NCBI RefSeq assembly: GCF_041886205.1
Contig: NZ_CP169029.1
Length of the DNA: 64,000 nucleotides
Direction: 5' to 3' (one strand)
Origin: Escherichia coli
Lineage (GTDB): Bacteria; Pseudomonadota; Gammaproteobacteria; Enterobacterales; Enterobacteriaceae
The position numbers were made by a program, and so were the translations under genes. The notes beneath the pieces are model-generated. The model did not search any database. It had not been told where the DNA came from and worked only from the letters and a program-made list of their open reading frames with translations. The first letter of the stretch is position 1. The number at the start of each line of letters is the position of its first letter. Shown here piece by piece: positions 39,647-62,949 of the stretch.

Positions 39647-39697
39647 AATCACCCGATACTGCGCTGGATACTACAAACTACTTCCACCGAACCCACC

Positions 39698-39773: not shown

Positions 39774-39775
39774 AA

Positions 39776-39851
39776 CGACCCGGTGGTGGGTGATGACGGG
39801 ATCGAACCGCCGACCCCCTCCTTGTAAGGGAGGTGCTCTCCCAGCTGAGCT
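39776..39851 (-). tRNA. valT: tRNA-Val (UAC)
   Basis: Identical 76-nt tRNA-Val sequence. Confidence 0.95.
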
Positions 39852-39886
39852 AATCACCCAATACTACGCTGGATACTACAACTAAC

Positions 39887-39959
39887 TATGTTAGTGGTGG
39901 GTCGTGCAGGATGACTCGACTTCGTCTCGCCCTTCGGGCCGTTGCTGATGCAACGTTAT
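39887..39959. repeat. Inter-tRNA spacer repeat (copy 3 of 3)
   Basis: TGGTGGGTCGTGCAGGATGACTCGACTTCGTCTCGCCCTTCGGGCCGTTGCTGATGCAACGTTATCCTTCACG. Confidence 0.8.
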
Positions 39960-39986
39960 CCTTCACGTTTTACTACCGCTTCCACC

Positions 39987-40062
39987 TTAGCGATTGGTGG
40001 GTCGTGCAGGATTCGAACCTGCGACCAATTGATTAAAAGTCAACTGCTCTACCAACTGAGCT
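39987..40062 (-). tRNA. lysT: tRNA-Lys (UUU), promoter-proximal gene of the operon
   Basis: Identical 76-nt tRNA-Lys sequence; operon promoter expected at 40063-40200. Confidence 0.95.
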
Positions 40063-40234
40063 AACGACCCACTTTTTCGTTGCTTTCGGTTTGTTTGATA
40101 TCCCGTGGCAACGGCGGCATATATTACTGATTTCAGACTTGAGCGCAACAAAAATTTCGATGCAGATCACTCAACTGCTTATGATTCGCACGACACGACC
40201 AGAAATAATGCGACTTCTGGTCGTGTGTTATGCA

Positions 40235-41026
40235 TTACATCGCGTTCAGACGTTTTTGTGCCTGTTTAGCGCCATCAGTACCAGGGTATTTACTGATAAC
40301 CTGCTGGTATACGGCTTTCGCTTTTGCGGTGTCACCTTTGTCCTGCATGATGACGCCGACTTTAAACATCGCATCAGCAGCCTTTGGTGACTTCGGATAG
40401 TTTTTCACTACCGAAGCAAAATAGTACGCCGCATCATCTTTTTTACCCTTGTTGTAGTTTAACTGACCCAGCCAATAATTGGCGTTTGGCAGGTAAGTTG
40501 AATCAGGGTAATTTTTGATGAAATTCTGAAATGCCACCATTGCGTCATCCTGGCGGGATTTATCCTGCACCAGCGCAATAGCTGCATTGTAATCCGTGTT
40601 TGCATCGCCGCTTTTCACCGGCGCGCCAGCATTCGCAGTACCAGCATCAGCTGTCGGCGTCGTTGATGCCGCCGCACCGCTTTGATCGCTGCTGGTTGAT
40701 TGCGCCGCTGCACCACCGCTGCTGAGGCTGTCGATCTGCAACAGGATCTGCTTTTGCCGCTCCACGACCTGATTCAGTTGATACTGATTTTCCTGAATCT
40801 GACCACGCAGGGAATCAATATCGGATTGATTATCAGAAAGTTGTTGCTGGAGTTGGGTTAAAAGCTGGCTGTGAGCATTAGAAATACGCTCAAGTTGAGT
40901 GACGCGGTCTTCGACCGAGCCTGAGCCGACACTACTGATTGGTGCCTGAGCAAAAGCGGCCCAGGGGGCCGCTATACCAACCAGTAACGACAGACTCAAT
41001 AGTTGATGTCTGAAGTTACTGCTCAT
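40235..41026 (-). CDS. cpoB: Cell-division coordinator CpoB (YbgF), TPR periplasmic protein
   Basis: 263 aa, signal peptide, coiled-coil Q-rich segment and TPR-like C-terminus. Confidence 0.9.
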   Translation of the reverse strand: MSSNFRHQLLSLSLLVGIAAPWAAFAQAPISSVGSGSVEDRVTQLERISNAHSQLLTQLQQQLSDNQSDIDSLRGQIQENQYQLNQVVERQKQILLQIDSLSSGGAAAQSTSSDQSGAAASTTPTADAGTANAGAPVKSGDANTDYNAAIALVQDKSRQDDAMVAFQNFIKNYPDSTYLPNANYWLGQLNYNKGKKDDAAYYFASVVKNYPKSPKAADAMFKVGVIMQDKGDTAKAKAVYQQVISKYPGTDGAKQAQKRLNAM

Positions 41027-41035
41027 GCAATTCTC

Positions 41036-41581
<546 letters not shown>

Positions 41582-47597: not shown

Positions 47598-49166
47598 TTA
47601 GCGTGCCGGCTGAGTAGTCGTGGAAGACTGCTCAAAGTGATAGCGACCGGTTTTCAGGCTGCTTGGGCCGAGGCGTGCAAACTTGAACATTAAGAACAAT
47701 TCTGCCACCAGGAACAGGGTATACAGGCCGCAAATCAGCACCATTGAGAAGATGAGATCGCCTGCGGTCAGTGACGAGTTCGCCACAGCTGTCGGCAGCA
47801 CTTCACCGATAGCCCACGGTTGGCGGCCATATTCAGCCACGAACCAGCCCGCTTCTACAGCAATCCACGGCAGCGGAATACCGTACAGCGCGGCGCGCAG
47901 AAGCCATTTTTTCTCGCCAATGCGGTTGCGGATGACACTCCAGAAAGAGAGCGCGATGATTGCCAGAAGCAGGAAGCCACACGCCACCATGATACGGAAC
48001 GCAAAGTACAGCGGCGCTACACGCGGGATGGAGTCTTTGGTTGCCTGTTGAATCTGCGCTTCAGTCGCATCAGCCACGTTTGGCGTATAGCGTTTCAGCA
48101 GCAGACCGTAACCGAGGTCTTTCTTCATGCTATTGAACTGGTCACGAACCGCCTGGTCGGTAGAACCAGAACGCAGTTGTTCGAGCAGAGAGTACGCCTT
48201 CATCCCGTTACGAATGCGTTCTTCATGCTGCACCATCAGCTCTTTCAGGCCGATAACCGGGGTATCCACGGAACGCGTTGCAATGATGCCCAGTGCGTAA
48301 GGGATCTGAATCGCAAATTTGTTCGTCTCCTCTTCCTGATCAGGAATGCCGAACAGAGTAAAGGCAGCAGGCGCAGGTTGCGTTTCCCACTCGGCTTCAA
48401 TAGCAGCCAGTTTGGTTTTCTGCACGTCGCCCATTTCGTAGCCGGATTCATCACCCAGAACAATAACAGACAGAACAGCAGCCATACCGAAGCTGGCAGC
48501 GATAGCAAAGGAGCGTTTAGCGAAGGCGAAGTCACGACCTTTCAGCATATACCATGCGCTGATACCGAGGATGAACATCGCGCCAGTCACATAACCAGAC
48601 GCTACAGTGTGAACGAATTTCACCTGAGCAACCGGGTTAAGCACCAGCTCGGAGAAGCTCACCATCTCCATACGCATAGTTTCAAAGTTGAAATCGGACG
48701 CGATTGGGTTTTGCATCCAGCCGTTCGCAACCAGAATCCACAGTGCGGACAGGTTTGAACCGAGCGCCACCAGCCAGGTGACACACATATGCTGAACTTT
48801 ACCCAGACGATCCCAACCGAAGAAGAACAGACCTACAAAGGTGGATTCGAGGAAGAAGGCCATCAGACCTTCGATTGCCAGCGGCGCACCGAAGATATCC
48901 CCTACATAGTGGGAATAGTAAGACCAGTTAGTCCCGAACTGGAACTCCATGGTCAGACCGGTAGCCACACCCAGAGCGAAGTTGATACCAAACAACTTGC
49001 CCCAGAACTTGGTCATATCTTTATAAATCTGTTTGCCGGAGAGGACGTAGACCGTTTCCATAATGGCCAGCAGGAACGCCATACCGAGCGTCAGTGGCAC
49101 AAAAAGGAAGTGGTACATCGCGGTCAAGGCAAACTGTAAGCGCGACAGTTCGACTATATCTAACAT
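47598..49166 (-). CDS. cydA: Cytochrome bd-I ubiquinol oxidase subunit I
   Basis: 522 aa, [41 protein letters not shown]…; the ORF track begins one codon upstream. Confidence 0.95.
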
Positions 49167-49503
49167 CATGACTCCTTGCTCATCGCATGAAGACTCCGAG
49201 AGTGAACCCCGTTAGAAAGGGTCACACGCATGCCCCAATACAAAATTATTTGCTCGCCTCTATCGTTGCCATTTCATCTAAAGAGGAAAAGACAATGATA
49301 AAAAAGTTACAAATATGTTAATGAATAAACCAAATTGATCCCGTAATTATATTACGCCGCAAAATCCTTACAATAAACAGGTTTTTATTGAGCAAATTTG
49401 CATTTTTCGACAGTGATCAATTTATAGCGAAATTGTCACGACCTCACCAATTTGATCTACGACAATTTATCGTGTTTTGCAGATTTATTTCAAGAATTAA
49501 AAA

Positions 49504-49517
49504 TTGATTTATATCAA
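49504..49517. promoter_or_regulatory. Candidate FNR/CRP-family site in the AT-rich cydAB control region
   Basis: TTGATTTATATCAA matches TTGAT-N4-ATCAA exactly; lies about 340 bp upstream of cydA. Confidence 0.45.
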
Positions 49518-49971
49518 AATCAACCAAATATGTTAATAATGTATAAACCATAGATCATTGGTAATTTTATTGTTAATTTATTGTGAAATATTTATGCAAC
49601 ACAATAATTACAATGAAAAAGTATAGATAAAAAACCAGTGTTTTATTTAACAGAACCGCCCTATCCACTTTTTATAATACCAATTGATTAGAGTAGCCAA
49701 TTTGTTGCTATTTCACATAACATATTTTTATCAAAGTTAATTGATTGTTGCCTTTATGAGCACCGACCGTATGCCCGTTATGTTATTGTTTCATTAGTAA
49801 TAATCACTTAAATGTATCGATGAAACAGGTATGACTTAGCGGGAGTGATTGTTTCTGAGTGAACAGAGACCACTTTCGCCTGATAAATGAAAAATGAGCG
49901 ATTTTTGCAAGTTAGTTTTTCTATAGCCGAGTACGCTCAGCGCCTCGCTTGATTACAATGAGGTTGCTGCT

Positions 49972-50916
49972 ATGAGTCCTGATAATATCAGTTCTGCTGT
50001 CAATCGCTTCTCAGGTTGGCCATCTAATGATCCTCTAAAAACAGATAAAGAATCAATGACATCACCCGTGACTGTGCAGGTAATAAAGATGATTGCCGCC
50101 ATCCTTGACCCACATCGGATAGTCGTTGGAATTGATACACTTTATACAACGCAGCGCGAAACATTTACCTCAGAGAGTCAACAGCTCATTGAATCAGCAT
50201 TGCAAACACTTCATGTGATGAATTTAAATAACCTGGAAACAAATCGCGATGAAGAAGGTCACTATCTGGCTTTTGAATATAACCTTGACACCTCTGACAG
50301 AATAACCGTTTCTGCTTATAATGAAAAAAATCTTGGCTGCTATGGCCAATGTCTTTTAATACAGGATGACGAAACAGACTTATTCAACCTGATAAAAATT
50401 AAAATTTTTGAAGCCAGGCATAATTATGTCGCTCAATTGATGAGCGATCCGGAATTTATGTTCAAATTCAGTTATAGCGCTCAACAAAATAGATTAGAAC
50501 CTCATCTTCTGGTTCCCGCTTATTTTCCTCTAAAAACAAACGAACCGGTTACGCAAGAGGATGTACTGTTACTTTATCGTTTCTTTAAAATGAATGATGA
50601 TTTTAATAAATTAACATCAGATGAATACATGAGTATCATGACACCTCTGATGAAGTGTGAGCGTAGCGTCCACGACCACAACAGGTATGTGACGGGCAAA
50701 GATACCCTTCTCCTGGACTATCCTCCTTCTGGTAACCAGATACATTTCCATGTTTTCCCTGACGAATCAGCAACACTAGTCCTTTATTTTTCAAACAATG
50801 ACCTTGAATGTTTCGTCTTTGAAAAAGATATTCCGAGCCAGTATCGCTTTTTCAAAATGTTTACCAATCTGGCACTGGTTATAGATCAGTTAACCGAAGC
50901 CAATAAAATACTTTAA
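49972..50916 (+). CDS. Hypothetical protein, 314 aa, no recognisable domain; AT-rich
   Basis: Long ORF with plausible RBS (GAGG) before ATG. Strongly AT-biased codon usage unlike flanking core genes, no signal peptide or TM segment visible. Confidence 0.55.
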   Translation: MSPDNISSAVNRFSGWPSNDPLKTDKESMTSPVTVQVIKMIAAILDPHRIVVGIDTLYTTQRETFTSESQQLIESALQTLHVMNLNNLETNRDEEGHYLAFEYNLDTSDRITVSAYNEKNLGCYGQCLLIQDDETDLFNLIKIKIFEARHNYVAQLMSDPEFMFKFSYSAQQNRLEPHLLVPAYFPLKTNEPVTQEDVLLLYRFFKMNDDFNKLTSDEYMSIMTPLMKCERSVHDHNRYVTGKDTLLLDYPPSGNQIHFHVFPDESATLVLYFSNNDLECFVFEKDIPSQYRFFKMFTNLALVIDQLTEANKIL

Positions 50917-50997
50917 TTTTCTATATATCCTCTGTGACAAATATTGCTTAACAATGCCCGGGGATTAATTTTTATTACTCACGGTAAGATTTAAATA

Positions 50998-51480
50998 ATG
51001 ATACCATCTCAGATCTCTTTCAATACTCTTCCTGTCAATGCAACATACGCTTCAGAGACAACAGTTGACACACAAAAATTCTCTGAAATCCTCTACTCAG
51101 CGGGGTGTTCCCTAAAGGATCTGGCTTATCTGAACAGATGTCTGGCATCATTACACCCAACTATCGCCAAAAACATTTATGAAACAGAAAATCTCAGCGA
51201 TCAAAAATTACTGCATATTGATTGCCGTAGTACAAATGAAATCAAGATAAATATCTTTTTTGGTCAGCAACGAGAAGGATTAATTGAAATTAGTTCTGAC
51301 ACAGTTATTTTTTCGATACTGTCTTCATTGATTGACTCCGCCATTTCTAAATTTCAACACCAAATCCCGTTAACGGTTCAGTTAATCCTGAACTATTGTA
51401 TGAGGATTATACTGATTAAATCCACCCTGTCGCGAAAAATGGCCTACGTTATTGCCAGACGTAATAAAACCTTTGATTAA
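50998..51480 (+). CDS. Hypothetical protein, 160 aa, no recognisable domain; AT-rich
   Basis: Co-directional with the preceding ORF, 81-bp spacer, similar AT-rich composition. Confidence 0.5.
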   Translation: MIPSQISFNTLPVNATYASETTVDTQKFSEILYSAGCSLKDLAYLNRCLASLHPTIAKNIYETENLSDQKLLHIDCRSTNEIKINIFFGQQREGLIEISSDTVIFSILSSLIDSAISKFQHQIPLTVQLILNYCMRIILIKSTLSRKMAYVIARRNKTFD

Positions 51481-51966
51481 CGTTACTCATACTGGTAGCA
51501 CCTTCATGTACCTCTCTTTTTTACGAAAAATCAAAAGAGCTAACGAAGGTCATAATTCGCATGAATCATTAATCATTTGTTATTTTCAACATTATTTTTA
51601 TATTAAGCAGAAATGAATTGCAGTGAAATTCGACTTAAATTTTATGAAATGCATTTACTCATGGCTAAACCCATATCACCAAAATGCAAATTAGAAGTAG
51701 ATCACAATTATCTCAATACATCAAATCAAGTTAATTTTAAAAATTTAACATTCATGACATTAGTTGACATAACATACTGAATTAACATGGAAATTTAAAA
51801 CCACACGTTAAACAATCATTTCCCGAAAGACATTTTGAAAATAGATCAATTGCAACATTACGGTCAGATAAAGACACTCCTGTGATATTAAACCTACGCC
51901 GTTATGAACGGCCATAAATACGACGTGTGTAACTTATTTTACTCTCTGTCTTACAAAGGATTACCC

Positions 51967-52416
51967 ATGAAGAAAACAACACTTGTGATTGGCGTTATTG
52001 GCGCGGACTGCCATGCAGTAGGCAATAAAGTTCTGGACCGCGTTTTTAGCAACCACGACTTCAGAGTCATTAATCTGGGCGTAATGGTCAGCCAGGACGA
52101 ATATATTGATGCTGCCATTGAAACTGGCGCTGACGCGATTGTCGTCTCCTCTATCTATGGGCATGGCGATATCGACTGTCTGGGCATGCGCGAACGCTGC
52201 ATCGAGCGTGGACTGGGGGACATCCTCCTCTATGTGGGCGGTAACCTGGTGGTCGGAAAACATGACTTCGCTGACGTGGAAACCAAGTTCAAAGAGATGG
52301 GATTTGATCGCGTCTTTGCCCCAAGTCATGACTTAGAAGATGTTTGTCAGCTGATGGCCCACGATATCAACCAACGTCATGACGTTGATACTCGCATTCT
52401 TGAAGAGGCAATCTGA
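51967..52416 (+). CDS. Glutamate mutase sigma (S) subunit, B12-binding domain (methylaspartate mutase small subunit)
   Basis: [27 protein letters not shown]… carries the cobalamin-binding DxHxxG-type motif (…DCHAVGNK…); about 149 aa. The ORF track begins upstream at 51904. Confidence 0.85.
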
Positions 52417-53804
52417 TGCAAATCGTCTCTGTCGATATTGGATCGACGTGGACCAAAGCAGCCCTCTTCACCCGGGAGGGGGACGCGTTAACGTTGGTTA
52501 ACCACGTACTGACCCCAACCACCACCCATCATCTGGCGAAGGGGTTTTTCTCCAGCCTGAACCAGGTGTTAAACGTAGATAATGCCCTCCCCCTGTTAAA
52601 CAGCGGTGAGGTTGCATTGAAGTATTCCTCCTCTGCCAAAGGTGGGCTGGCGGTTGCCGCAATGGGATTAGTGCCTTCTATCACCCTGGAAACCGCGAAA
52701 GTAACTGCTCACTCAGCGGGTGCTAAAATTGCGCAATATTATGCCTACAAGCTGAACCGCCGTGATATCCAGGCACTGGAAGAAACGCAGCCCGATATTC
52801 TCTTGTTCACCGGCGGCACCGACGGCGGAGAAGAAAGCTACGGACTGAATAACGCCCGTGTGCTGGCAGAATCCAAACTCGACTGCGCCATTATTTATGC
52901 CGGAAACCGGGATATTCAGGACGAGGTGCAGGAGATCCTCGGGCATAAAGACCTGACCATCGTCGACAACGTTCTGCCCGATCTTGACCATCCGAACCCT
53001 TTAGCTGCACGCCAGGCTATCTGCGACATATTCCTTAAACGCATCGTTAAAGGGAAAGGGCTGGATGTCATTGTTGATAAAACAGGCGAAGAACCAATGC
53101 CGACACCATGGACGGTCTTTGAACTGGTTAAGGCAATCAGTAACGTCGATCACAGCTGGAAAGAGTTCATGCTGATCGACATGGGCGGCGCAACCACCGA
53201 TGTTTATTCCGCCTGTGCCAACACGCTCTCGCCCGACACCGTTTTACACGGCGTACCGGAACCCTTCGTAAAACGGACGGTGGAAGGCGATCTGGGAATG
53301 CGCGTCTCGGCAGTGGTGGTTGGTGAAAGTGCGAAAGAGTTAGTCAATGTGAATTTTGCTCAGCAACCCGCACAGCTGGACGCTTTTTATCATTATCTCC
53401 GTCATTTAGTCGCTCATCCCGACTACTTACCCGCAAATGCAGAAGAGAAATATTTCGATACCGTCCTGGCCGGACTGTGTGTGGGTTATGCCACCGAAAG
53501 ACATGCGGGCACCAAAAAAGAGGTCTGCACCTGCGTCGGCAATGTCGATTTACAGATGGGACGCGACCTGACAACCGTGCGTAAAGTCGTGGGATCCGGC
53601 GGATGGCTCTCGCGTGCCAGTCAGTTCGATATGCATCACTGGTTGAAATACCGCGAGTTAAACGACGACGGTAAACGCATTCTCTTACCGACCGAATTTG
53701 AATATTACCGCGATTCCCGGGGGCTATTACCACTGCTGGCAAACGTCGCCAGAGTCGATCCTCTGGCCGCCGCGCGCACCAGTATTCAATGCTTAACCCT
53801 ATAA
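52416..53804 (+). CDS. Glutamate mutase accessory protein (GlmL/MutL-like, actin-fold ATPase)
   Basis: 462 aa, [18 protein letters not shown]…; placed between the S and E subunit genes as in clostridial operons. Confidence 0.75.
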   Translation: MQIVSVDIGSTWTKAALFTREGDALTLVNHVLTPTTTHHLAKGFFSSLNQVLNVDNALPLLNSGEVALKYSSSAKGGLAVAAMGLVPSITLETAKVTAHSAGAKIAQYYAYKLNRRDIQALEETQPDILLFTGGTDGGEESYGLNNARVLAESKLDCAIIYAGNRDIQDEVQEILGHKDLTIVDNVLPDLDHPNPLAARQAICDIFLKRIVKGKGLDVIVDKTGEEPMPTPWTVFELVKAISNVDHSWKEFMLIDMGGATTDVYSACANTLSPDTVLHGVPEPFVKRTVEGDLGMRVSAVVVGESAKELVNVNFAQQPAQLDAFYHYLRHLVAHPDYLPANAEEKYFDTVLAGLCVGYATERHAGTKKEVCTCVGNVDLQMGRDLTTVRKVVGSGGWLSRASQFDMHHWLKYRELNDDGKRILLPTEFEYYRDSRGLLPLLANVARVDPLAAARTSIQCLTL

Positions 53805-53822: not shown

Positions 53823-55268
53823 ATGGAACTTCGAAATAAGAAATTAACCCATGACGAATTCATGACCGAGCGGCAACAGGTACTGAAAACCTGGGAAACC
53901 GGCAAGGATGTTGAAAACTTTGAAGATGGCGTTAAATACCAACAAACCATCCCTGAGCATAAACGCTTCTCTCTTGCGCTGCTGAAAGCAGACAAGGAAG
54001 GTAAAACCCTTAGCCAACCGCGCGCAGGTGTGGCGCTGATGGACGAACACATCGAACTACTGAAAACACTACAAGAAGAGTGCGATCTGCTGCCAAGCAC
54101 CATCGATGCATATACCCGTCTGAATCGGTACGAAGAAGCGGCTGTAGGGATTAAAAAATCCATCGAAGCCGGAACCTCTAAACTGAACGGTTTACCGGTA
54201 GTTAACCACGGCGTCGCAGCTTGCCGTCGCCTCACCGAAACCCTGCAAAAACCGCTACAGATCCGCCACGGCACGCCAGATGCGCGTCTGCTGGCTGAAA
54301 TCTCGATGTCCAGCGGCTTTACCAGTTACGAAGGCGGCGGCATTTCCTACAACATTCCGTATGCCAAACGCGTAACGCTGGAAAAATCGATCCGCGACTG
54401 GCAGTACTGCGACCGTTTAATGGGGATGTACGAAGAACACGGGATCCGCATCAACCGCGAACCATTTGGCCCACTAACGGGTACGCTGATCCCGCCGTTT
54501 ATCTCGCACTCTATCGCCATAATCGAAGGATTGCTGGCACTGGAACAGGGTGTGAAATCTATCACCGTTGGTTATGGCCAGGTCGGCAGCCTGACGCAGG
54601 ATGTTGCGGCGATCCAGTCTCTGCGTGAACTTGCACACGAATATTTTCAGAGCTATGGCTATACCGACTATGAATTGAGTACCGTGTTTCACCAGTGGAT
54701 GGGCGGCTTTCCGGAAGACGAATCGAAAGCGTTCGCTATTATCTCCTGGGGCGCAGCCGTCGCGGGGATGTCTGGTGCCACCAAAGTCATCACCAAAAGT
54801 CCGCACGAAGCCTGGGGCATCCCGACTGCCGCTGCCAACATTCAAGGGCTAAAAGCCTCCCGCCAGATGCTCAACATGGTCAATGAGCAGAAATTCCCGC
54901 CGTGCCCTGCGGTTGAACTGGAAATTGAACTGATTAAGAGCGAGGTTCGCGCGGTACTGAATAAAGTGTTTGAACTGGGTAATGGTGATATTGCGCGCGG
55001 TACGGTGCTGGCATTTGAAGCGGGCGTACTGGATGTGCCGTTTGCGCCAGCCGCCTGCAACGCGGGCAAAATTCTTCCGGTCCGTGACAACACCGGCGCG
55101 ATACGCGTACTGGAAGCCGGAGCCGTTCCATTGCCAAAAGATATTCTCGACCTCCACCACGATTACGTTGCGGAACGCGCACGCTTTGAAGGACGCCAAC
55201 CGACATTCCAGATGGTTGTAGATGACATCAATGCTGTATCCCACAGTAAATTAATAGGAAGACCATAA
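53823..55268 (+). CDS. Glutamate mutase epsilon (E) subunit (methylaspartate mutase large subunit)
   Basis: 481 aa; TIM-barrel mutase E-subunit-like sequence immediately after S and L. Confidence 0.85.
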   Translation: MELRNKKLTHDEFMTERQQVLKTWETGKDVENFEDGVKYQQTIPEHKRFSLALLKADKEGKTLSQPRAGVALMDEHIELLKTLQEECDLLPSTIDAYTRLNRYEEAAVGIKKSIEAGTSKLNGLPVVNHGVAACRRLTETLQKPLQIRHGTPDARLLAEISMSSGFTSYEGGGISYNIPYAKRVTLEKSIRDWQYCDRLMGMYEEHGIRINREPFGPLTGTLIPPFISHSIAIIEGLLALEQGVKSITVGYGQVGSLTQDVAAIQSLRELAHEYFQSYGYTDYELSTVFHQWMGGFPEDESKAFAIISWGAAVAGMSGATKVITKSPHEAWGIPTAAANIQGLKASRQMLNMVNEQKFPPCPAVELEIELIKSEVRAVLNKVFELGNGDIARGTVLAFEAGVLDVPFAPAACNAGKILPVRDNTGAIRVLEAGAVPLPKDILDLHHDYVAERARFEGRQPTFQMVVDDINAVSHSKLIGRP

Positions 55269-56509
55269 TGAAAATAAAACAGGCTCTGTTCACCGCTGGC
55301 TACTCCTCATTCTATTTCGATGACCAGCAGGCGATAAAAAACGGAGCGGGTCATGACGGCTTTTTTTATACCGGGGAGCCGGTAACACAGGGGTTTAACG
55401 CCGTTCGTCAGGCCGGGGAGTGCGTATCGGTACAGTTGATTCTGGAAAACGGCGCGGTCGCCGTAGGTGACTGTGCTACCGTACAGTATTCCGGGGCAGG
55501 TGGTCGCGATCCACTGTTCCTCGCAGAGCACTTTATTCCGTTCCTCAACGATCATATCAAGCCATTACTGGTAGGCCGCGATGTGGATGCTTTCCTGCCG
55601 AATGCCCGTTTCTTCGACAAATTGCGTATTGACGGCAACTTGCTGCATACCGCCGTGCGCTACGGATTATCACAGGCGCTGCTTGATGCTACCGCGCTGG
55701 CAACCGGCCGTCTGAAAACTGAAGTGGTCTGTGATGAATGGCAGTTGCCACGCGTGGCGGAATCCATTCCATTATTTGGTCAGAGCGGCGACGATCGATA
55801 TATCGCCGTCGATAAGATGATCCTTAAAGGCATCGACGTGCTGCCCCATGCGCTGATTAATAACGTCGAGGAGAAGCTGGGCTTTAAAGGTGAAAAACTG
55901 CGCGAATATGTCCGCTGGCTGTCGGATCGCATTCTGAGCAAGCGCACCAGCGCACGCTACCACCCTACCCTGCACATCGATGTATACGGCACTATCGGTC
56001 TGATCTTCGATATGGATCCGCTTCGCTGTGCGCAATACATCGCCAGCCTGGAAACAGAAGCGCAAGGCCTGCCGCTCTACATTGAAGGGCCGGTCGATGC
56101 CGGTAACAAGCCCGATCAAATTCGCCTGCTGACCGCGATTACCAAAGAGCTGACGCGCCTCGGTTCTGGCGTGAAAATTGTGGCCGATGAATGGTGTAAC
56201 ACTTACCAGGATATTGTTGATTTCACCGATGCCGCCAGTTGCCACATGGTGCAAATCAAAACCCCGGATCTGGGCAGTATTCACAACATCGTCGATGCGG
56301 TTCTTTACTGCAACAGCCACAGCATGGAAGCATACCAGGGCGGCACCTGCAATGAAACTGATGTCAGTGCCCGCACCTGTGTCCACGTCGCCCTAGCCGC
56401 TCGCCCTATGCGTATGCTGGTAAAACCAGGGATGGGCTTTGACGAAGGCCTCGATATCGTCTTCAACGAAATGAATCGTACTATCGCGCTGTTGCAGGCT
56501 AAGGATTAA
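55268..56509 (+). CDS. mal: 3-methylaspartate ammonia-lyase (enolase superfamily)
   Basis: 413 aa, MKIKQALFTAGYSSFYFDDQQAIKNGAGHDGFFYTGEPVT…; start overlaps the mutase E stop (TAATG). Confidence 0.85.
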   Translation: MKIKQALFTAGYSSFYFDDQQAIKNGAGHDGFFYTGEPVTQGFNAVRQAGECVSVQLILENGAVAVGDCATVQYSGAGGRDPLFLAEHFIPFLNDHIKPLLVGRDVDAFLPNARFFDKLRIDGNLLHTAVRYGLSQALLDATALATGRLKTEVVCDEWQLPRVAESIPLFGQSGDDRYIAVDKMILKGIDVLPHALINNVEEKLGFKGEKLREYVRWLSDRILSKRTSARYHPTLHIDVYGTIGLIFDMDPLRCAQYIASLETEAQGLPLYIEGPVDAGNKPDQIRLLTAITKELTRLGSGVKIVADEWCNTYQDIVDFTDAASCHMVQIKTPDLGSIHNIVDAVLYCNSHSMEAYQGGTCNETDVSARTCVHVALAARPMRMLVKPGMGFDEGLDIVFNEMNRTIALLQAKD

Positions 56510-56512: not shown

Positions 56513-57883
56513 ATGGCTCGTTCTTTTAAAGTCTTATCGCCAACGGCAATCCTCGGGTATGGATTCCCGGAAGAGAGCTTCCGCAAAGCGATGGCAGAAT
56601 CGCCTGATCTGATCGCCGTTGATGCAGGCTCTTCCGATCCTGGCCCCCACTACCTCGGAGCGGGCAAACCGTTTACCGATCGCGCAGGGGTCAAGCGCGA
56701 TCTGCGCTATATGATCACCGCAGGCGTGCAAAATAATATACCGGTGGTGATCGGAACGGCCGGCGGTTCTGGTGCCGCACCACACCTGGAGTGGTGCCGA
56801 GAAATAATTCATGAGATTGCCCGGGAAGAGCTCCTCTCGTTCTCGATGGCACTGATCCCGGCAGACGTTGACAAAGCCATCGTCCACCAGGCGCTGGATA
56901 ACGGCAAAATCACGGCGCTGGATTTTGTCCCGCCGTTAACCCACGACGCGATTGACGAAAGTACGTATATCGTCGCGCAAATGGGCATCGAACCCTTCCA
57001 GCGGGCGCTGAAAGAAGGCGCGCAAGTGGTGCTGGGCGGGCGCGCTTACGACCCGGCCTGCTTTGCTGCGCTCCCGATCATGCAAGGCTTTGATGAAGGT
57101 CTGGCGCTGCATTGTGGGAAAATCCTTGAATGCGCGGCAATCGCCGCAACGCCCGGCTCAGGCTCTGACTGTGCGATGGGCATCATTGATGACAACGGCT
57201 TTACGCTGAAGACATTTAATCCGAAGCGTAAATTTACCGAAACGTCAGCAGCTGCACACACACTGTATGAGAAATCCGATCCCTACTTCCTGCCAGGACC
57301 TGGCGGCGTGTTGAACCTGAAAGGCTGCACATTTAAAGCAGTCAATGACGGCGAAGTGTACGTCAGCGGTTCCAAGCATGAAGAAACGCCGTATGCCCTG
57401 AAACTGGAAGGTGCGCGACGGGTGGGCTTCCGCTGTCTGACCATCGCCGGAACGCGCGACCCGATCATGATCGCCGGGATCGATAAAATCATCGATGAAG
57501 TCAAAACCAGCGTTTCGCGTAACCTGTCGCTAGACGATGACAGCATTCGCATCAATTTCCACCTGTACGGCAAAAACGGGGTGATGGGCGACCATGAACC
57601 GATGCAAACTGCCGGGCATGAGCTGGGGATTGTCCTTGATGTAGTTGCACCGACCCAGGAAATTGCCAATAGTGTTTGCTCGCTGGTGCGCTCTACCATG
57701 CTGCACTACGGCTATGAAAACCGCATCGCTACCGCAGGCAACCTGGCGTTCCCGTTCTCTCCTTCTGATATCCAGGGCGGGCCGGTATACGAATTTTCCA
57801 TATATCACCTGATTGAAGCCAACGACGCTCTGCGTTTTGATTTCCATATTGAACAGGTGACGCCAGAAGGAGTTCAGGCATGA
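56513..57883 (+). CDS. Uncharacterised protein, 456 aa, resembling the AtuA-like (DUF1446) family
   Basis: Family assignment by remembered similarity only; in-operon position right after mal with a 3-bp gap. Confidence 0.6.
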   Translation: MARSFKVLSPTAILGYGFPEESFRKAMAESPDLIAVDAGSSDPGPHYLGAGKPFTDRAGVKRDLRYMITAGVQNNIPVVIGTAGGSGAAPHLEWCREIIHEIAREELLSFSMALIPADVDKAIVHQALDNGKITALDFVPPLTHDAIDESTYIVAQMGIEPFQRALKEGAQVVLGGRAYDPACFAALPIMQGFDEGLALHCGKILECAAIAATPGSGSDCAMGIIDDNGFTLKTFNPKRKFTETSAAAHTLYEKSDPYFLPGPGGVLNLKGCTFKAVNDGEVYVSGSKHEETPYALKLEGARRVGFRCLTIAGTRDPIMIAGIDKIIDEVKTSVSRNLSLDDDSIRINFHLYGKNGVMGDHEPMQTAGHELGIVLDVVAPTQEIANSVCSLVRSTMLHYGYENRIATAGNLAFPFSPSDIQGGPVYEFSIYHLIEANDALRFDFHIEQVTPEGVQA

Positions 57884-58197
57884 AACAGTCAATTGTCTCA
57901 CTGGCGCAAGTCATTCGTTCGAAAAATGCCGGACCTTACGAACTGGTTTTAGATATTTTATTTAAAACTAAAGAAAACTATGAGCGAGTTAAATCATCAG
58001 GGCAATTAACCCCAGAACTGATTGCGCGCTTATATCATGTTGAACCTGACTTTATTCATCGTATTGTCTGGTTTGATCCTTCTAACGCAGTAAAAATCGT
58101 CATGCCACGAGATATTATCTCCGGGAATGTAGGTGACAATGATGTCTATGGTGCACAGCAACATGCACCTTTATTAAATATGAGTTTCGATTTGTAA
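57880..58197 (+). CDS. Uncharacterised small protein, 105 aa (DUF4387-like), translationally coupled to the preceding gene
   Basis: ATG overlaps the upstream stop (ATGA); this small partner commonly accompanies the AtuA-like family. Confidence 0.6.
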   Translation: MKQSIVSLAQVIRSKNAGPYELVLDILFKTKENYERVKSSGQLTPELIARLYHVEPDFIHRIVWFDPSNAVKIVMPRDIISGNVGDNDVYGAQQHAPLLNMSFDL

Positions 58198-58280
58198 AAA
58201 TCCGAACACTTTTAGCCAACTGACATCCCGTCACTTATTGCAGTTCAACACTTCAGCTATTTGTAAGGTTGTAATAGCAG

Positions 58281-58330
58281 GTAGATGCCTGAATCTCTAT
58301 TCAGGCATCTACTTCTCCTGATTCTGATTT
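58281..58330 (+). terminator. Rho-independent terminator after the mutase/lyase genes
   Basis: Perfect 14-bp stem GTAGATGCCTGAAT-CTCT-ATTCAGGCATCTAC followed by TTCTCCTGATTCTGATTT. Confidence 0.75.
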
Positions 58331-58336
58331 ATCGCC

Positions 58337-59638
58337 GTGCACCTGATGGAGGAAAAAATGAAGAAAATAAGTTTAACCACGATGATTCTTTTGGCGCTGG
58401 TACTTGGAATGATTATCGGCGTAGTGCTCAATAACACTGCTTCACCGGAAACAGCAAAACTCTATGCGCAAGAAATATCGATATTCACGACGATTTTCTT
58501 ACGACTGATAAAAATGATTATCGCTCCGCTAGTGGTTTCTACCCTGGTGGTAGGTATTGCTAAAATGGGCGATGCCAAAGCCCTTGGCCGTATTTTTTCT
58601 AAAACACTCTTTTTATTTATTTGCGCCTCATTGCTATCAATTGCCTTAGGCTTGATAACGGTAAATTTCTTCATGCCAGGTACAGGAATTAATTTTGTTG
58701 CACACGGTGCCGAAACCACTGGAGTGGTCGCGTCAGAACCCTTCACGCTAAAAGTATTTATTTCGCATGCTTTCCCCACCAGCATTGTCGATGCCATGGC
58801 GCACAATGAAATTTTGCAAATCGTGGTGTTCTCAATTTTCCTCGGCTGTAGCCTGACGGCGATTGGCGAGAAAGGCAGCGCCATCGTTCACGCCTTAGAT
58901 TCGCTGGCACATGCCATGTTAAAGCTCACTGGCTACGTCATGCTCTTCGCTCCCCTGACCGTATTCGCCGCTATTTCAGCATTGATTGCTGAACGAGGAC
59001 TGGCAGTTATGGTGAGCGCCGGGATCTTTATGGGTGAATTTTATTTCACCATGTTATTACTTTGGGTGCTGCTTATCGGTCTGGCCATCGTTTATGTCGG
59101 CCCCTGCATCAGACGCCTGACCCGCGCCCTTTCGGAACCCGCCCTGCTGGCATTTACCACATCCAGTTCTGAAGCGGCTTTTCCGGGAACGCTTGAAAAA
59201 CTGGAGCAATTTGGCGTTTCCCCCAAAATTGCCAGCTTTGTCTTACCCATTGGCTACTCATTTAATCTCGTTGGATCAATGGCCTACTGCTCCTTCGCCA
59301 CCGTTTTCATCGCCCAGGCCTGCAATATCCATTTATCCATCGGTGAGCAAATCACCATGCTGTTGATCCTGATGTTGACCTCGAAAGGAATGGCTGGCGT
59401 ACCACGCGCCTCAATGGTGGTTATCGCCGCCACGCTCAACCAGTTCAATATTCCGGAAGCGGGGCTGATCTTGCTGATGGGCGTTGATCCGTTCCTTGAT
59501 ATGGGGCGTTCCGCGACAAACGTCATGAGCAACGCAATGGGCGCTGCGATGGTGAGTCGGTGGGAAGGCGAACATTTCGGCGAGGGCTGTCGGGGTAAAG
59601 CATTAAAATCCAATGAATCGAACGTTGCTCTGCCCTGA
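58337..59638 (+). CDS. Dicarboxylate/amino acid:cation symporter (DAACS, GltP/DctA-like)
   Basis: 433-aa polytopic membrane protein with DAACS-like motifs (…LTSKGMAGVPRASMVVIAATL…). True start may be the downstream MKKISL (58358). Confidence 0.8.
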   Translation: MHLMEEKMKKISLTTMILLALVLGMIIGVVLNNTASPETAKLYAQEISIFTTIFLRLIKMIIAPLVVSTLVVGIAKMGDAKALGRIFSKTLFLFICASLLSIALGLITVNFFMPGTGINFVAHGAETTGVVASEPFTLKVFISHAFPTSIVDAMAHNEILQIVVFSIFLGCSLTAIGEKGSAIVHALDSLAHAMLKLTGYVMLFAPLTVFAAISALIAERGLAVMVSAGIFMGEFYFTMLLLWVLLIGLAIVYVGPCIRRLTRALSEPALLAFTTSSSEAAFPGTLEKLEQFGVSPKIASFVLPIGYSFNLVGSMAYCSFATVFIAQACNIHLSIGEQITMLLILMLTSKGMAGVPRASMVVIAATLNQFNIPEAGLILLMGVDPFLDMGRSATNVMSNAMGAAMVSRWEGEHFGEGCRGKALKSNESNVALP

Positions 59639-59745: not shown

Positions 59746-61398
59746 ATGTCCAAACCTTTTATCTGGCAAGAACCGTTTCTACAAAATAAAGACGGTACAG
59801 AATATACATTAATTAGCGATCAACATATTACAGTAACGGAATTAGACGGCGAAGAAGTGATAAAAATCGCTCCTGAAGCATTAACGCTGCTTGCCCGGCA
59901 GGCATTTTATGAAGCCTCTTTTTTCTTACGTTCCGCTCATTTGCAACAGGTCGCCAGCATTCTTAACGATCCGCAGGCCAGTAGTAATGATAAATACGTT
60001 GCGTTGCAGTTATTACGTAATGCTGAAGTCTCAGCAAAAGGGGTATTACCCAACTGTCAGGATACCGGCACCGCAACTATTGTTGCCAGTAAAGGGCAAC
60101 AGATATGGACCGGAGGTAACGACGCCGAAGCCTTAAGCAAAGGCATTTACACCACTTTTCAGGAAAATAATCTGCGCTTTTCACAAAATGCGCCGCTGGA
60201 TATGTATACCGAAGTCAATACGCAAACCAATCTCCCGGCGCAGATTGATATCAGCGCTGTCGCTGGTAATGAGTACCATTTTCTCTGTGTTAATAAAGGG
60301 GGCGGCTCTGCCAATAAAGCCGCGCTTTATCAGGAAACCAAATCCTTATTGCAACCAGAAAAACTGACCGCATTTTTAATCGAAAAAATGAAATCGCTGG
60401 GCACCGCTGCCTGCCCGTCTTATCACATCGCCTTTGTCGTCGGAGGGCTTTCAGCCGATCAAACCTTAAAAGTTGCCAAGCTGGCTTCTACGAAATATTT
60501 CGACAATTTGCCCACCAGCGGAAACGAGCAGGGACAAGCATTCCGTGATATTGAGCTGGAAAAAGCGTTGCTCGAGGCCAGTCAGCAATTTGGTATTGGT
60601 GCGCAATTTGGGGGTAAATATTTCGCTCATGATATTCGCGTCATTCGTCTGCCGCGTCACGGTGGCTCTTGCCCGATAGCTATGGCGCTCTCCTGTTCAG
60701 CCGATCGCAATATCAAAGCAAAAATTAACAAACACGGTATCTGGCTGGAAAAACTCGAACACAATCCGGGGCAATATATTCCAGCCTCACTGCGGGAAGA
60801 AAATCACGCGCAACATGTACAACTGGATCTAAACCGTCCGTTGCGTGACGTGATGCAGGATCTCGCCAGATTACCGGTAGGCACCCGCGTGTCGTTAAGT
60901 GGTCCCATCGTAGTGGCGCGCGATATCGCCCACGCCAAAATAAAAGCGCGGCTGGATAGCGGCGAACCGATGCCGGATTACCTGAAGCATCATATTGTCT
61001 ATTACGCTGGCCCGGCGAAAACACCGGAGAACATGGCCTGCGGTTCACTGGGTCCAACCACGGGCGGTCGAATGGACGGTTATGTCGATACCTTCCAGGC
61101 GGCTGGCGGCAGTCTGGTGATGTTATCGAAAGGTAACCGCAGCCAGCAGGTCACCGATGCCTGTCACAAACATGGCGGCTTCAATCTGGGAAGTATTGGC
61201 GGTGCAGCTGCGTTACTGGCGCAAGAATATGTCAAAAGTCTGCGTTGCCTGGAATACCCGGAGCTGGGTATGGAAGCGGTGTGGATGATGGAAGTGGAAA
61301 ATCTGCCCGCATTCATCCTGGTAGATGATAAAGGCAATAATTTCTTTAGTCAGTTTGAGCAGCAACACCGCTGCGCCAGTTGCCCTGCGGGACATTAA
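59746..61398 (+). CDS. Class I (Fe-S) fumarate hydratase paralogue, candidate mesaconase
   Basis: 550 aa, collinear with FumA/FumB (…[11 protein letters not shown]…, …[11 protein letters not shown]…, …[16 protein letters not shown]…) but clearly diverged. Confidence 0.85.
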
Positions 61399-61407: not shown

Positions 61408-62010
61408 ATGGAAGCGCGAATTTCAACTGAACGGCATGTGCAGCGCCAACAGAAATTGAAGGAACAGGTCGATACGCGCGTCGCGGCGGCGATAGAGAAA
61501 AAAGGGATCTTGATTGTTTTCACCGGCAACGGCAAAGGGAAATCCACTGCCGCGTTTGGTACTGTGACGCGCGCGGTGGGTCATGGCAAAACGGTGGGGG
61601 TTGCGCAGTACATCAAGGGGCAATGGGACAACGGCGAATACAACCTTCTCCAGCCGCTGGGGGTTGAGTTTCATATTATGGGAACCGGTTTTACCTGGGA
61701 GACACAGAACCGGCAAGCGGATATCGACGCGGCGAAAGAGGTCTGGTCGGAAAGCAAACGGATGCTGGCTGACAAGCGTTACGACTTAGTGGTGCTTGAT
61801 GAGCTGACCTATATGCTGGCTTACCATTATCTGGATACCGAAGAAGTGATCGCTTCTCTGCAAAACCGCCCGGCACAACAAAGTGTCATTGTCACCGGAC
61901 GCGGTTGCCACAGTCAGATATTAAAAATGGCGGATACGGTAAGCGAAATCCGTCCCGTCAAACATGCTTTTGATAACGGCATTCAGGCCCAGCCGGGTAT
62001 CGACTGGTAA
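61408..62010 (+). CDS. Cob(I)yrinic acid a,c-diamide / corrinoid adenosyltransferase paralogue (BtuR/CobO family)
   Basis: 200 aa, …ILIVFTGNGKGKSTAAFG… P-loop, collinear with BtuR. Confidence 0.85.
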   Translation: MEARISTERHVQRQQKLKEQVDTRVAAAIEKKGILIVFTGNGKGKSTAAFGTVTRAVGHGKTVGVAQYIKGQWDNGEYNLLQPLGVEFHIMGTGFTWETQNRQADIDAAKEVWSESKRMLADKRYDLVVLDELTYMLAYHYLDTEEVIASLQNRPAQQSVIVTGRGCHSQILKMADTVSEIRPVKHAFDNGIQAQPGIDW

Positions 62011-62013: not shown

Positions 62014-62046
62014 CTGCGCCTGGCATCCCGCCAGGCGCAGGTTTTA
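62014..62046. terminator. Hairpin between convergent genes (likely bidirectional terminator)
   Basis: CTGCGCCTGGC-ATCCC-GCCAGGCGCAG followed by GTTTTAC. Confidence 0.6.
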
Positions 62047-62949
62047 CATCTCCTGCGGTACGACCGATTTCACCAGCAACCATTCACGAAATTGCTGCAA
62101 GTGCGGTGAGTCAGACTTCTCTTCCTGCCACGTCATAATAAAACGATTACCGGTACGAATAGGCACATCACAGGGGATCACCATATCGCCACTATCCAAA
62201 TCATGTTGAATAGCGAACCGTGGTAACAGCGCCACGCCGAGATTAGAGCGCACGGCGGCAATCAGCATTGAAAGCAAATCGAAACGTGGTCCGTTGTTGA
62301 CCAGCGGACTGCTAACGCCAGATAAAGCAAACCACTCTTCCCAGCCAGTAATACGGGTGCTTTGATGCAGAAGTGGTAACTCAGTAAGCAGTTCTGCCAC
62401 TGACAGTTTTTGATCGGACATTGCAAGCAAACTGCCACTGCATACCGGCAAAATCTCCTCTTCAAAGAGATATTCTACTTCCGCCCAGGGCGCGCAAAAA
62501 TTTTCGCGCATAATGACAGCATCGTACTCCCGATTAAGAAAATCGCCGTTATTAGCTAAAGAATGAATATTAACAATAATATCGGGATGTAACTTTGTGA
62601 ATTCATGTAAATTTGGGATTAACCAGTGGGTACTAAAAGTAGGATTAACGGCAAGTTCAATAACCTGAACCGTAGGCTGCCAGGTCATAATGGTATTGGT
62701 ATCGCGTTCCAGCTTATTTAATGTTTCTTTTACTATCCCCAGGTAATACTTCCCTGCATCATTAAGAAAAATGCGTTTTTTAGAGTGTGAAAATAATGGA
62801 GTATGTAAAAATTCCTCCAGCGCACTTACTTGTCTGAATACAGCACTTTGGGTTAACGCTAACTCCTCTGCCGCTCTGGTATAACTTTCATGACGTGCGA
62901 CGACCTCAAAAGTCACCAGCAGTTCCGTTTTAGGTATTTTCCCTCGCAT
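62044..62949 (-). CDS. LysR-family transcriptional regulator
   Basis: 301 aa, N-terminal HTH (…VTFEVVARHESYTRAAEELALTQSAVFRQVSALEE…). Confidence 0.85.
   Translation of the reverse strand: MRGKIPKTELLVTFEVVARHESYTRAAEELALTQSAVFRQVSALEEFLHTPLFSHSKKRIFLNDAGKYYLGIVKETLNKLERDTNTIMTWQPTVQVIELAVNPTFSTHWLIPNLHEFTKLHPDIIVNIHSLANNGDFLNREYDAVIMRENFCAPWAEVEYLFEEEILPVCSGSLLAMSDQKLSVAELLTELPLLHQSTRITGWEEWFALSGVSSPLVNNGPRFDLLSMLIAAVRSNLGVALLPRFAIQHDLDSGDMVIPCDVPIRTGNRFIMTWQEEKSDSPHLQQFREWLLVKSVVPQEM

What the first reader, a model, noticed from the sequence alone, without database searches (positions are those of the whole stretch)
56513..58197. Uncharacterised two-gene pair embedded inside the mutase/lyase operon
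A 456-aa protein and a translationally coupled 105-aa partner sit directly after the methylaspartate ammonia-lyase gene (3-bp gap) and before a strong terminator, so they are almost certainly co-transcribed with the pathway enzymes. I recall this pairing as an AtuA-like family with a small companion of unknown function. The operon otherwise lacks an obvious enzyme for the step after mesaconate hydration, so this pair is a candidate for a missing or auxiliary pathway function.
Basis: inference. Interest (0 to 1): 0.6.

Follow-up and report, generated by a model that had tools for sequence, protein, structure and literature searches.

The report
Citramalate lyase CmlAB gene pair
These two overlapping E. 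coli genes encode the large and small subunits of a recently solved, non-classical citramalate lyase that supplies the last step (citramalate to pyruvate plus acetate) of the glutamate/methylaspartate pathway island.

Summary
ORFs 56513-57883 (456 aa) and 57880-58197 (105 aa) lie 3 bp after the methylaspartate ammonia-lyase gene and overlap by ATGA. They match Pfam AtuA and DUF4387. They are 92.3% and 84.6% identical, full length, to PDB 9ERQ/9EVF chains A and B. The depositors named these 'citramalate lyase subunit A (cmlA)' and 'subunit B (cmlB)', and crystallised them with AMPPNP + citramalate and with ADP + pyruvate. A 2026 preprint uses this Raoultella planticola enzyme in vivo to turn mesaconate-derived citramalate into pyruvate + acetate.

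In 80 genomes from many phyla, cmlB follows cmlA in 79 and the ammonia-lyase gene sits directly upstream in 71. No classical CitDEF lyase gene occurs in any of these loci. In E. coli the pair and the 10-kb island are present or absent together in about 21% of genomes.

The 'strong terminator' is a conserved hairpin without a U-tract, and three more pathway genes follow it. The role of the nucleotide is inferred, not shown. The finding is already known, although Pfam, NCBIfam and RefSeq names do not yet reflect it.

The parts
51967..52416 (+). glmS, glutamate (methylaspartate) mutase B12-binding subunit S. The longest ORF starts at 51904; the RefSeq start corresponds to 51967.
   Evidence: NCBIfam NF002612/TIGR01501 E 7e-76; RefSeq annotation of the same locus
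52416..53804 (+). glmL, mutase accessory/reactivating protein
   Evidence: TIGR01319 E 3e-270, NF040745 above cutoff
53823..55268 (+). glmE, glutamate mutase catalytic subunit E
   Evidence: TIGR01503 E 3.6e-260
55268..56509 (+). mal, methylaspartate ammonia-lyase (methylaspartate to mesaconate + NH3)
   Evidence: TIGR01502 E 9.5e-163
56513..57883 (+). cmlA, large subunit of the CoA/ACP-independent citramalate lyase (AtuA/DUF1446 family)
57880..58197 (+). cmlB, small subunit (DUF4387), translationally coupled to cmlA by an ATGA overlap
   Evidence: 88/104 = 84.6% identical to PDB 9ERQ/9EVF chain B 'Citramalate lyase, subunit B (cmlB)'. Pfam PF14330 E 2.9e-39. Adjacent to cmlA in 79/80 genomes. 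Fused to the C-terminus of CmlA-like proteins in all 19 long family representatives.
58279..58312 (+). Perfect 15-bp stem / 4-nt loop hairpin between cmlB and the transporter gene. It has no U-tract, so it is not a canonical intrinsic terminator.
   Evidence: RNA fold of 58195-58340, z = -4.1. The scan flags only a sub-stem. A strong stem-loop of different sequence occupies the same position in Citrobacter, Klebsiella, Raoultella and other loci, never with a U tail.
58358..59638 (+). DctA/GltP-family dicarboxylate/amino acid:cation symporter (probable glutamate or C5-dicarboxylate uptake). The longest ORF starts at GTG 58337; the RefSeq start corresponds to ATG 58358.
   Evidence: NCBIfam DctA/GltP models E 1e-90 to 2.5e-93, below equivalog cutoffs; RefSeq annotation
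59746..61398 (+). fumD, class I fumarase/mesaconase (mesaconate to (S)-citramalate), which supplies the CmlAB substrate
   Evidence: NF011921 1279 bits, above cutoff. The E. coli O157:H7 orthologue has been characterised biochemically, kcat/Km for mesaconate 2e6 M-1 s-1 (PMC4682846).
61408..62010 (+). cobO/cobA, cob(I)alamin adenosyltransferase (makes AdoCbl for the mutase)
   Evidence: TIGR00708 and NF004637 above cutoff
62014..62040 (+). Canonical intrinsic terminator that closes the cluster (11-bp stem, 9 GC pairs, T-rich tail)
   Evidence: Top terminator-like site in the scan
62044..62949 (-). Convergently oriented LysR-family regulator, a putative regulator of the island
   Evidence: RefSeq annotation; named as a putative LTTR in PMC4682846 Fig. 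5 legend. The regulatory role is inferred.

Best explanation
The two genes encode CmlA and CmlB, the large and small subunits of a two-subunit citramalate lyase that is unrelated to the classical acyl-carrier-protein-dependent CitDEF enzyme. The island encodes a pathway in four steps: glutamate to (2S,3S)-3-methylaspartate (GlmS/E, with GlmL and CobO as helpers), then to mesaconate (Mal), then to (S)-citramalate (FumD), then to pyruvate + acetate (CmlAB). The pair therefore supplies the C-C cleavage step that was missing in Enterobacteria. The following are shown or reported: orthology to the solved enzyme; the ligands named in the PDB titles (AMPPNP + citramalate; ADP + pyruvate); cmlAB-dependent conversion of mesaconate to pyruvate + acetate in vivo, as reported by others; and the genomic linkage. 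How the nucleotide acts is my inference (about 0.4-0.5). The substrate complex was trapped with a non-hydrolysable ATP analogue and the product complex holds ADP, so ATP most likely phosphorylates the C4 carboxylate of citramalate. The resulting acyl phosphate would play the part that the thioester plays in citrate lyase: it stabilises the enolate formed in the retro-aldol/retro-Claisen cleavage to pyruvate + acetyl phosphate. The phosphoryl group would then return to ADP, on the enzyme or through acetate kinase, giving free acetate with no net ATP cost. CmlB is an obligatory structural part of the enzyme. Candidate catalytic and phosphate/metal-binding residues are the family-invariant D42-x-G44-P45 loop, G176-R177-x-x-D180, E253 and E299.
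Against: No primary biochemical paper on Cml could be found in the searchable library. The enzyme name therefore rests on the depositors' PDB titles and on a preprint that used the enzyme as a gift. The E. coli proteins themselves have not been assayed, and in 2015 no condition was found under which E. coli O157:H7 expresses the island. The acyl-phosphate mechanism is inferred from entry titles alone. The preprint mentions neither ATP nor acetyl phosphate and describes free acetate as the product, with Acs up-regulated in evolved strains. That fits on-enzyme return of the phosphoryl group, but it fits a purely allosteric nucleotide equally well. Five of the 80 loci carry cmlAB with no pathway gene within 6-10 kb.
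Confidence: 0.85

Rival explanations
1. The enzyme and reaction are the same, but the nucleotide is only a structural or allosteric ligand. Cleavage would be a direct metal-assisted retro-aldol that forms an aci-carboxylate of acetate, as in the isocitrate lyase reaction, with no phosphoryl transfer.
For: The preprint describes the enzyme as directly cleaving citramalate to pyruvate and acetate, never mentions ATP, and treats the reaction as freely reversible and disfavoured by 20 mM acetate. Acidic residues are invariant across the family (D42, D180, E253, E299) and could bind a divalent metal.
Confidence: 0.3
2. ATP is hydrolysed in each turnover (citramalate + ATP to pyruvate + acetate + ADP + Pi), which makes the cleavage irreversible.
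For: The AMPPNP/ADP pair of complexes is also compatible with net hydrolysis.
Against: Spending one ATP per glutamate would cancel most of the ATP yield of the fermentation (established pathway energetics; my inference). The preprint's authors expected high acetate to disfavour the cleavage thermodynamically, which would not hold for an ATP-driven reaction.
Confidence: 0.1
3. The pair is not a citramalate lyase in E. coli but a generic AtuA-type enzyme with another substrate (for example a CoA ester), or an auxiliary factor for the mutase or ammonia-lyase, as the frequent database label '3-methylaspartate ammonia-lyase' suggests.
For: RefSeq names it an AtuA family protein. Several homologues are labelled 3-methylaspartate ammonia-lyase. 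The Pfam AtuA match is only moderate and partial (66.8 bits, residues 63-394).
Against: It is 92% identical over the full length to the enzyme crystallised with citramalate and pyruvate. It does not match the methylaspartate ammonia-lyase model, which the true mal gene hits at E 1e-162. There are no atu genes nearby. PMC4682846 already noted that the ammonia-lyase label has no known basis.
Confidence: 0.04
4. The genes are intact, but the island is cryptic in E. coli, so the pair has no physiological role under ordinary conditions.
For: In 2015 no growth on or stimulation by glutamate, and no expression conditions, were found for E. coli O157:H7.
Against: All nine ORFs are intact here. The island is retained at 95-100% identity in about 1120 complete genomes with almost perfect co-retention of its parts, which argues for purifying selection. 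This rival concerns physiology, not what the proteins are.
Confidence: 0.2

Closest known systems
CmlAB citramalate lyase of Raoultella planticola (PDB 9ERQ and 9EVF, released October 2025; used in bioRxiv 10.64898/2026.01.16.699985)
   Different: Only the host species and 35 + 16 substitutions differ, and none of the substitutions falls at a clade-invariant position. The E. coli proteins have not been assayed.
Classical citramalate/citrate lyase complex CitDEF (EC 4.1.3.22 / 4.1.3.6) of Clostridium tetanomorphum and E. coli
   Same: The overall reaction and pathway position are the same: (S)-citramalate to pyruvate + acetate, the last step of the methylaspartate route (PMC4682846).
   Different: The two are not homologous. 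No CitD/E/F homologue occurs in any of the 80 cmlAB loci, and the pair hits no NCBIfam citrate-lyase model. CitDEF needs an acyl-carrier subunit with a phosphoribosyl-dephospho-CoA prosthetic group plus CitC/X/G for activation. CmlAB has two subunits, no carrier protein, and binds an adenine nucleotide instead. E. coli's own citrate lyase showed no citramalate lyase activity.
AtuA of the Pseudomonas/Thauera acyclic terpene utilisation cluster (Pfam PF07287)
   Same: They belong to the same superfamily. [quoted passage not shown] That reaction would also release acetate from a tertiary beta-hydroxy acid bearing a free carboxymethyl group, so the chemistry would be analogous (inference).
   Different: The Thauera AtuA homologue is 615 aa (PMC4847356). 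That is the length class of the family representatives that are CmlA-like + DUF4387 fusions, whereas here the two parts are separate genes. The Pfam AtuA match is only moderate and partial (66.8 bits, residues 63-394). The genomic context is glutamate catabolism, not atuBCDEFGH. AtuA's activity has never been demonstrated, and reviews assign that step to LiuE (PMC4097962).
[quoted passage not shown]
   Same: It also converts citramalate into pyruvate plus a C2 unit after a mesaconase step (PMC4682846 Fig. 2).
   Different: It needs two enzymes and CoA and yields acetyl-CoA. Most enterobacteria lack citramalyl-CoA lyase genes. CmlAB is described as CoA-independent and yields acetate.

Membership tests
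CmlAB two-subunit citramalate lyase (PDB 9ERQ/9EVF) | Large subunit homologous over its full length to the solved CmlA | tested here: met
CmlAB two-subunit citramalate lyase (PDB 9ERQ/9EVF) | Small DUF4387 subunit (CmlB) encoded immediately downstream | tested here: met
   E 5.2e-57, 88/104 identical. ATGA overlap. Adjacent in 79/80 related loci.
CmlAB two-subunit citramalate lyase (PDB 9ERQ/9EVF) | Genomic association with the enzymes that make citramalate (mal, glutamate mutase, class I fumarase/mesaconase) | tested here: met
   mal is 3 bp upstream and fumD is in the same cluster. mal is immediately upstream in 71/80 loci, with glmE in 63 and a fumarase in at least 37.
CmlAB two-subunit citramalate lyase (PDB 9ERQ/9EVF) | Retention of clade-invariant residues, including the Gly-rich loops 37-52 and 200-220 | tested here: met
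   Alignment A1 has about 190 invariant columns. None of the 35 differences from the PDB chain falls on one of them.
CmlAB two-subunit citramalate lyase (PDB 9ERQ/9EVF) | Binds an adenine nucleotide together with citramalate or pyruvate | not testable with these tools
   Known only from the PDB entry titles for the orthologue.
CmlAB two-subunit citramalate lyase (PDB 9ERQ/9EVF) | Catalyses (S)-citramalate to pyruvate + acetate | not testable with these tools
   Reported in vivo for the R. planticola enzyme. The E. coli proteins have not been assayed.
AtuA family (Pfam PF07287 / DUF1446) | Significant match to the family HMM | tested here: met
   E 2.1e-18, 66.8 bits, residues 63-394 of 456. 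The match is moderate and partial.
AtuA family (Pfam PF07287 / DUF1446) | Role in acyclic terpene utilisation (location in an atuABCDEFGH cluster) | tested here: not met
   The neighbours are glmS/L/E, mal, a transporter, fumD and cobO, with no atu genes. The family name is misleading for this clade.
DUF4387 (Pfam PF14330) | Significant full-length match to the family HMM | tested here: met
   E 2.9e-39, residues 6-101, model positions 2-97 of 98.
Classical citrate/citramalate lyase CitDEF | Homology to CitD (ACP), CitE (beta) or CitF (alpha) | tested here: not met
   The pair hits no NCBIfam model. tblastn with E. coli CitD/E/F finds nothing in the 80 cmlAB loci.
Methylaspartate ammonia-lyase (a frequent database label for CmlA homologues) | Match to TIGR01502 / enolase-superfamily MAL | tested here: not met
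   CmlA hits no NCBIfam family, whereas the true mal gene hits TIGR01502 at E 9.5e-163. The label appears on homologues P0002, P0060 and P0072, and PMC4682846 says it has no known basis.

The most novel reading that the evidence does not exclude
The whole AtuA/DUF1446 + DUF4387 family may be a previously unrecognised class of adenine-nucleotide-dependent lyases. The family has about 2400 clusters at 50% identity, most of them uncharacterised and many of them single-chain fusions. Such enzymes would remove acetate from tertiary beta-hydroxy acids through an acyl-phosphate intermediate, a phosphate-based counterpart of the thioester chemistry of citrate lyase. [quoted passage not shown] The pairs found beside split fumarases, M20 peptidases and amidohydrolases (L085, L088) would mark further unknown catabolic routes that end in a hydratase + lyase module.
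Probability: 0.35. Interest if true: 0.6.

Novelty: already known. Interest (0 to 1): 0.3.

Why it matters
The fate of citramalate in the enterobacterial glutamate/methylaspartate island was explicitly unresolved in 2015. About 21% of complete E. coli genomes carry the island here, and the 2015 paper reported it in 90.6% of O157:H7 strains. This pair closes the pathway with an enzyme of a new fold that needs no acyl carrier protein or CoA, and it is already being used in synthetic carbon-assimilation designs. For annotation, the value is practical. RefSeq, Pfam and NCBIfam still call these proteins 'AtuA family', 'DUF4387' or, wrongly, '3-methylaspartate ammonia-lyase'. The mal-cmlA-cmlB signature gives a clean rule for renaming hundreds of orthologues. 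As a discovery it is not new.

Tried and rejected
- **Primary paper.** I used all 10 literature searches on combinations of citramalate lyase, AtuA, DUF4387, DUF1446, CmlA/CmlB, Raoultella planticola and methylaspartate. No primary paper on Cml is in the library, only the preprint that uses it and the 2015 FumD paper.
- **NCBIfam.** No model hits either protein.
- **Canonical terminator after cmlB.** Not found.
- **Regulatory RNA.** No cobalamin riboswitch or any other Rfam family lies in the island.
- **Clade boundary.** Several metagenomic contigs for homologues at 44-50% identity were too short to show what lies upstream (L082, L083, L087), so the identity level at which linkage to mal is lost is only roughly bracketed at about 55-57%.
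- **Fumarase count.** My tblastn survey required at least 50% query coverage, so split alpha/beta fumarases are under-counted. The figure of 37/80 is a lower bound.

Full report
**Observation.** The window is E. coli chromosome: region 56513-58197 is 100% identical to strain wlxctx60. ORF 56513..57883 (456 aa) begins 3 bp after the stop codon of the methylaspartate ammonia-lyase gene (55268..56509) and has an AAGGA ribosome-binding site. ORF 57880..58197 (105 aa) begins with an ATG that overlaps the first ORF's TGA (ATGA) and is preceded by AAGGAG. Pfam assigns them to AtuA (PF07287, E 2.1e-18, residues 63-394) and DUF4387 (PF14330, E 2.9e-39). NCBIfam has no model for either. RefSeq calls them 'acyclic terpene utilization AtuA family protein' and 'DUF4387 domain-containing protein'.

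**Surroundings.** The pair lies inside a same-strand cluster:

| Gene | Coordinates | Product |
|---|---|---|
| glmS | 51967-52416 | mutase subunit S |
| glmL | 52416-53804 | mutase accessory protein |
| glmE | 53823-55268 | mutase subunit E |
| mal | 55268-56509 | methylaspartate ammonia-lyase |
| the pair | 56513-58197 | see below |
| transporter | 58358-59638 | DctA/GltP-type symporter |
| fumD | 59746-61398 | class I fumarase/mesaconase |
| cobO | 61408-62010 | cob(I)alamin adenosyltransferase |

A convergent LysR-family gene follows at 62044-62949. The cluster sits between cydA and mngB, preceded by an AT-rich stretch (34-37% GC against about 52%). In complete E. coli genomes the pair occurs in 1125 of 5426, mal in 1122, and at least 80% of the 10.1-kb island in 1117. 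It behaves as a single accessory island.

**The 'strong terminator'.** There is a perfect 15-bp stem with a 4-nt loop at 58279-58312, and the region folds far better than shuffles (z = -4.1). No U-run follows it, and the consensus scan reports only a 5-bp sub-stem. A strong stem-loop of different sequence occupies the same position in Citrobacter, Klebsiella, Raoultella and other loci, with pairing kept through sequence changes and never a U-tail. The one canonical terminator is after cobO at 62014-62040. The hairpin is therefore real and conserved, but it does not mark the end of the pathway genes. Its role (partial termination, mRNA stabilisation or processing) is open.

[quoted passage not shown] It was a gift from I. 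Berg's laboratory. The authors report mesaconate-dependent growth of an acetyl-CoA auxotroph that requires the plasmid, is lost on curing, and is confirmed by isotope labelling. In 2015 the same laboratory had characterised FumD from this island in E. coli O157:H7. [quoted passage not shown] The pair is the answer to that question.

**Comparative genomics.** A scan of one genome per species returned 583 relatives, and I fetched the 80 best (57-92% identity). They come from Enterobacterales, Rhodocyclales, Riflebacteria, Aminicenantes, Spirochaetes, Oscillospiraceae and other Firmicutes, Lentisphaerae, Planctomycetes and Deltaproteobacteria. tblastn with the window proteins gave these counts:
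- cmlB directly downstream: 79/80. The exception is a contig that ends there.
- mal directly upstream (about -1250 bp): 71/80.
- glmE 63, glmS 56, glmL 55.
- A class I fumarase in at least 37.

Four of the nine loci without mal are truncated contigs. Five (Accumulibacter, three Shewanella, Desulfospira) carry a stand-alone pair among unrelated genes. None of the 80 loci (1.32 Mb) contains a CitD, CitE or CitF homologue. This fits CmlAB taking the place that CitDEF holds in clostridial glutamate-fermentation clusters.

**Family structure.** An exhaustive search finds 2384 clusters (50% identity level) at E no more than 1e-3 and 444 at E no more than 1e-30. Only a handful exceed 50% identity to CmlA, so CmlA is a narrow, highly conserved clade of a large family. 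All 19 representatives of 608 aa or more carry a C-terminal CmlB-like domain. This is Rosetta-stone evidence that the two proteins are parts of one enzyme.

At 55% and 48% identity (L085/L086, L088/L089) mal is absent, but a two-subunit class I fumarase, an M20 peptidase, an amidohydrolase (L085/L086), a DcuC transporter (L085/L086) and an AraC regulator accompany the pair. A hydratase + lyase module seems to be reused with other feeder reactions. At 44-50% identity the contexts differ or the contigs are too short to tell.

[quoted passage not shown] Reviews assign that step to LiuE (PMC4097962).

**Mechanism.** The shown or reported facts are the substrate and product ligands, the bound adenine nucleotide, the two-subunit composition, CoA independence, and acetate + pyruvate as products in vivo. 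The rest is inferred. The Michaelis complex was trapped with AMPPNP and the product complex contains ADP, so I consider ATP a participant in catalysis. The most likely scheme runs in three steps:
1. Phosphorylation of the C4 carboxylate.
2. Cleavage of the acyl phosphate to pyruvate + acetyl phosphate. This parallels the thioester-assisted cleavage in citrate lyase.
3. Return of the phosphoryl group to ADP, so that acetate is released with no net ATP cost.

This is compatible with the preprint's treatment of the reaction as reversible and acetate-sensitive. I put it at 0.4-0.5. The rivals are a purely allosteric or structural nucleotide with metal-assisted direct cleavage (about 0.3) and net ATP hydrolysis (about 0.1).

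Sequence conservation points to likely active-site elements. Sixteen positions are at least 95% conserved across 102 divergent full-length family members: G15, D42, G44, P45, G87, G158, G176, R177, D180, G192, E253, P263, G265, E299, G305 and G353. D42-G44-P45 lies in a Gly-rich loop (41-54) that the model predicts with low confidence, as it does a second clade-invariant loop at 212-217. That pattern is typical of mobile loops that close over ligands (inference). The fold has no close relative in the PDB other than 9ERQ/9EVF.

**Comparison and novelty.** The pair is an orthologue of a solved, named enzyme and sits in a cluster already described for E. coli O157:H7. I rate it 'already known'. 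It works like classical citramalate lyase (same reaction, same pathway position) but is not a member of that family, because homology was tested and not found. It is a member of the Pfam AtuA and DUF4387 families by HMM, but not of the acyclic-terpene pathway those names imply. The label '3-methylaspartate ammonia-lyase' on some homologues is wrong.

What remains open is the nucleotide's chemical role, the function of the many other family members, and the conditions under which E. coli expresses the island. No primary paper was accessible, so the enzyme name rests on the PDB titles and the preprint.

**Verdict.** Interest 0.3.

Noticed in passing
window 58279-58312 (and the same intergenic position in L003-L016 and L020): A strong stem-loop between cmlB and the transporter gene is conserved in position across enterobacterial genera. 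The sequences differ but keep the pairing, and no U-tract ever follows. In Citrobacter-type loci a conserved CCCTACAC motif comes after it. It is not a canonical terminator, and its function is unknown.
   Followed up: partly
window 49000-52000 (ORFs 49972-50916 and 50998-51480): An AT-rich stretch (34-37% GC against about 52% in the enzyme genes) lies between cydA and glmS. It holds two ORFs that RefSeq calls hypothetical; the second is a frameshifted pseudogene in strain PT62. It looks like the foreign edge of the island or a long regulatory region. I did not search these ORFs against any family library.
   Followed up: no
L085 7001-14596, L086, L088 7001-12003, L089: CmlA/CmlB homologues at 48-55% identity are not next to mal. 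They sit in an AraC-regulated cluster with a split class I fumarase and an M20 peptidase, plus an amidohydrolase and a DcuC transporter in L085/L086. This is probably a different catabolic route that feeds the same hydratase + lyase module.
   Followed up: partly
L030, L061, L064, L075, L076: Accumulibacter, Shewanella and Desulfospira carry a stand-alone cmlA-cmlB pair (57-68% identity). No mutase, ammonia-lyase or fumarase gene lies within 6-10 kb; the neighbours are HrpA, a metalloprotease, RND efflux genes, MalQ and a histidine kinase. The source of their substrate is unknown.
   Followed up: partly
P0123, P0146, P0154, P0167, P0215, P0226, P0230 and others: Long family members (608-1109 aa) are fusions of a CmlA-like and a CmlB-like domain. 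Some are much longer (811-1109 aa) and must carry further domains that I did not identify.
   Followed up: partly
homologues P0002, P0060, P0072: Several CmlA orthologues are labelled '3-methylaspartate ammonia-lyase' in NCBI records. This is an annotation error, probably propagated from gene neighbourhood, and the 2015 FumD paper had already remarked on it.
   Followed up: yes
window 57880-58999: cmlB and the following intergenic region are visibly more AT-rich (about 44% GC in 58000-58999) than the neighbouring enzyme genes (52-55%).
   Followed up: no
window 8233-8349; 39073-40070; 40997-41135: Rfam hits elsewhere in the window: an ALIL pseudoknot (typical of an IS3-family insertion sequence), a cluster of seven tRNA genes with three RtT repeats, and the CpoB/ybgF thermometer element. 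None is related to this finding.
   Followed up: no
L001 16028-17425 (beyond the LysR gene; corresponds to just past the window end): An RtcB-family RNA ligase gene lies between the island's LysR regulator and mngB in strain PT62. It may be part of the same accessory insertion.
   Followed up: no
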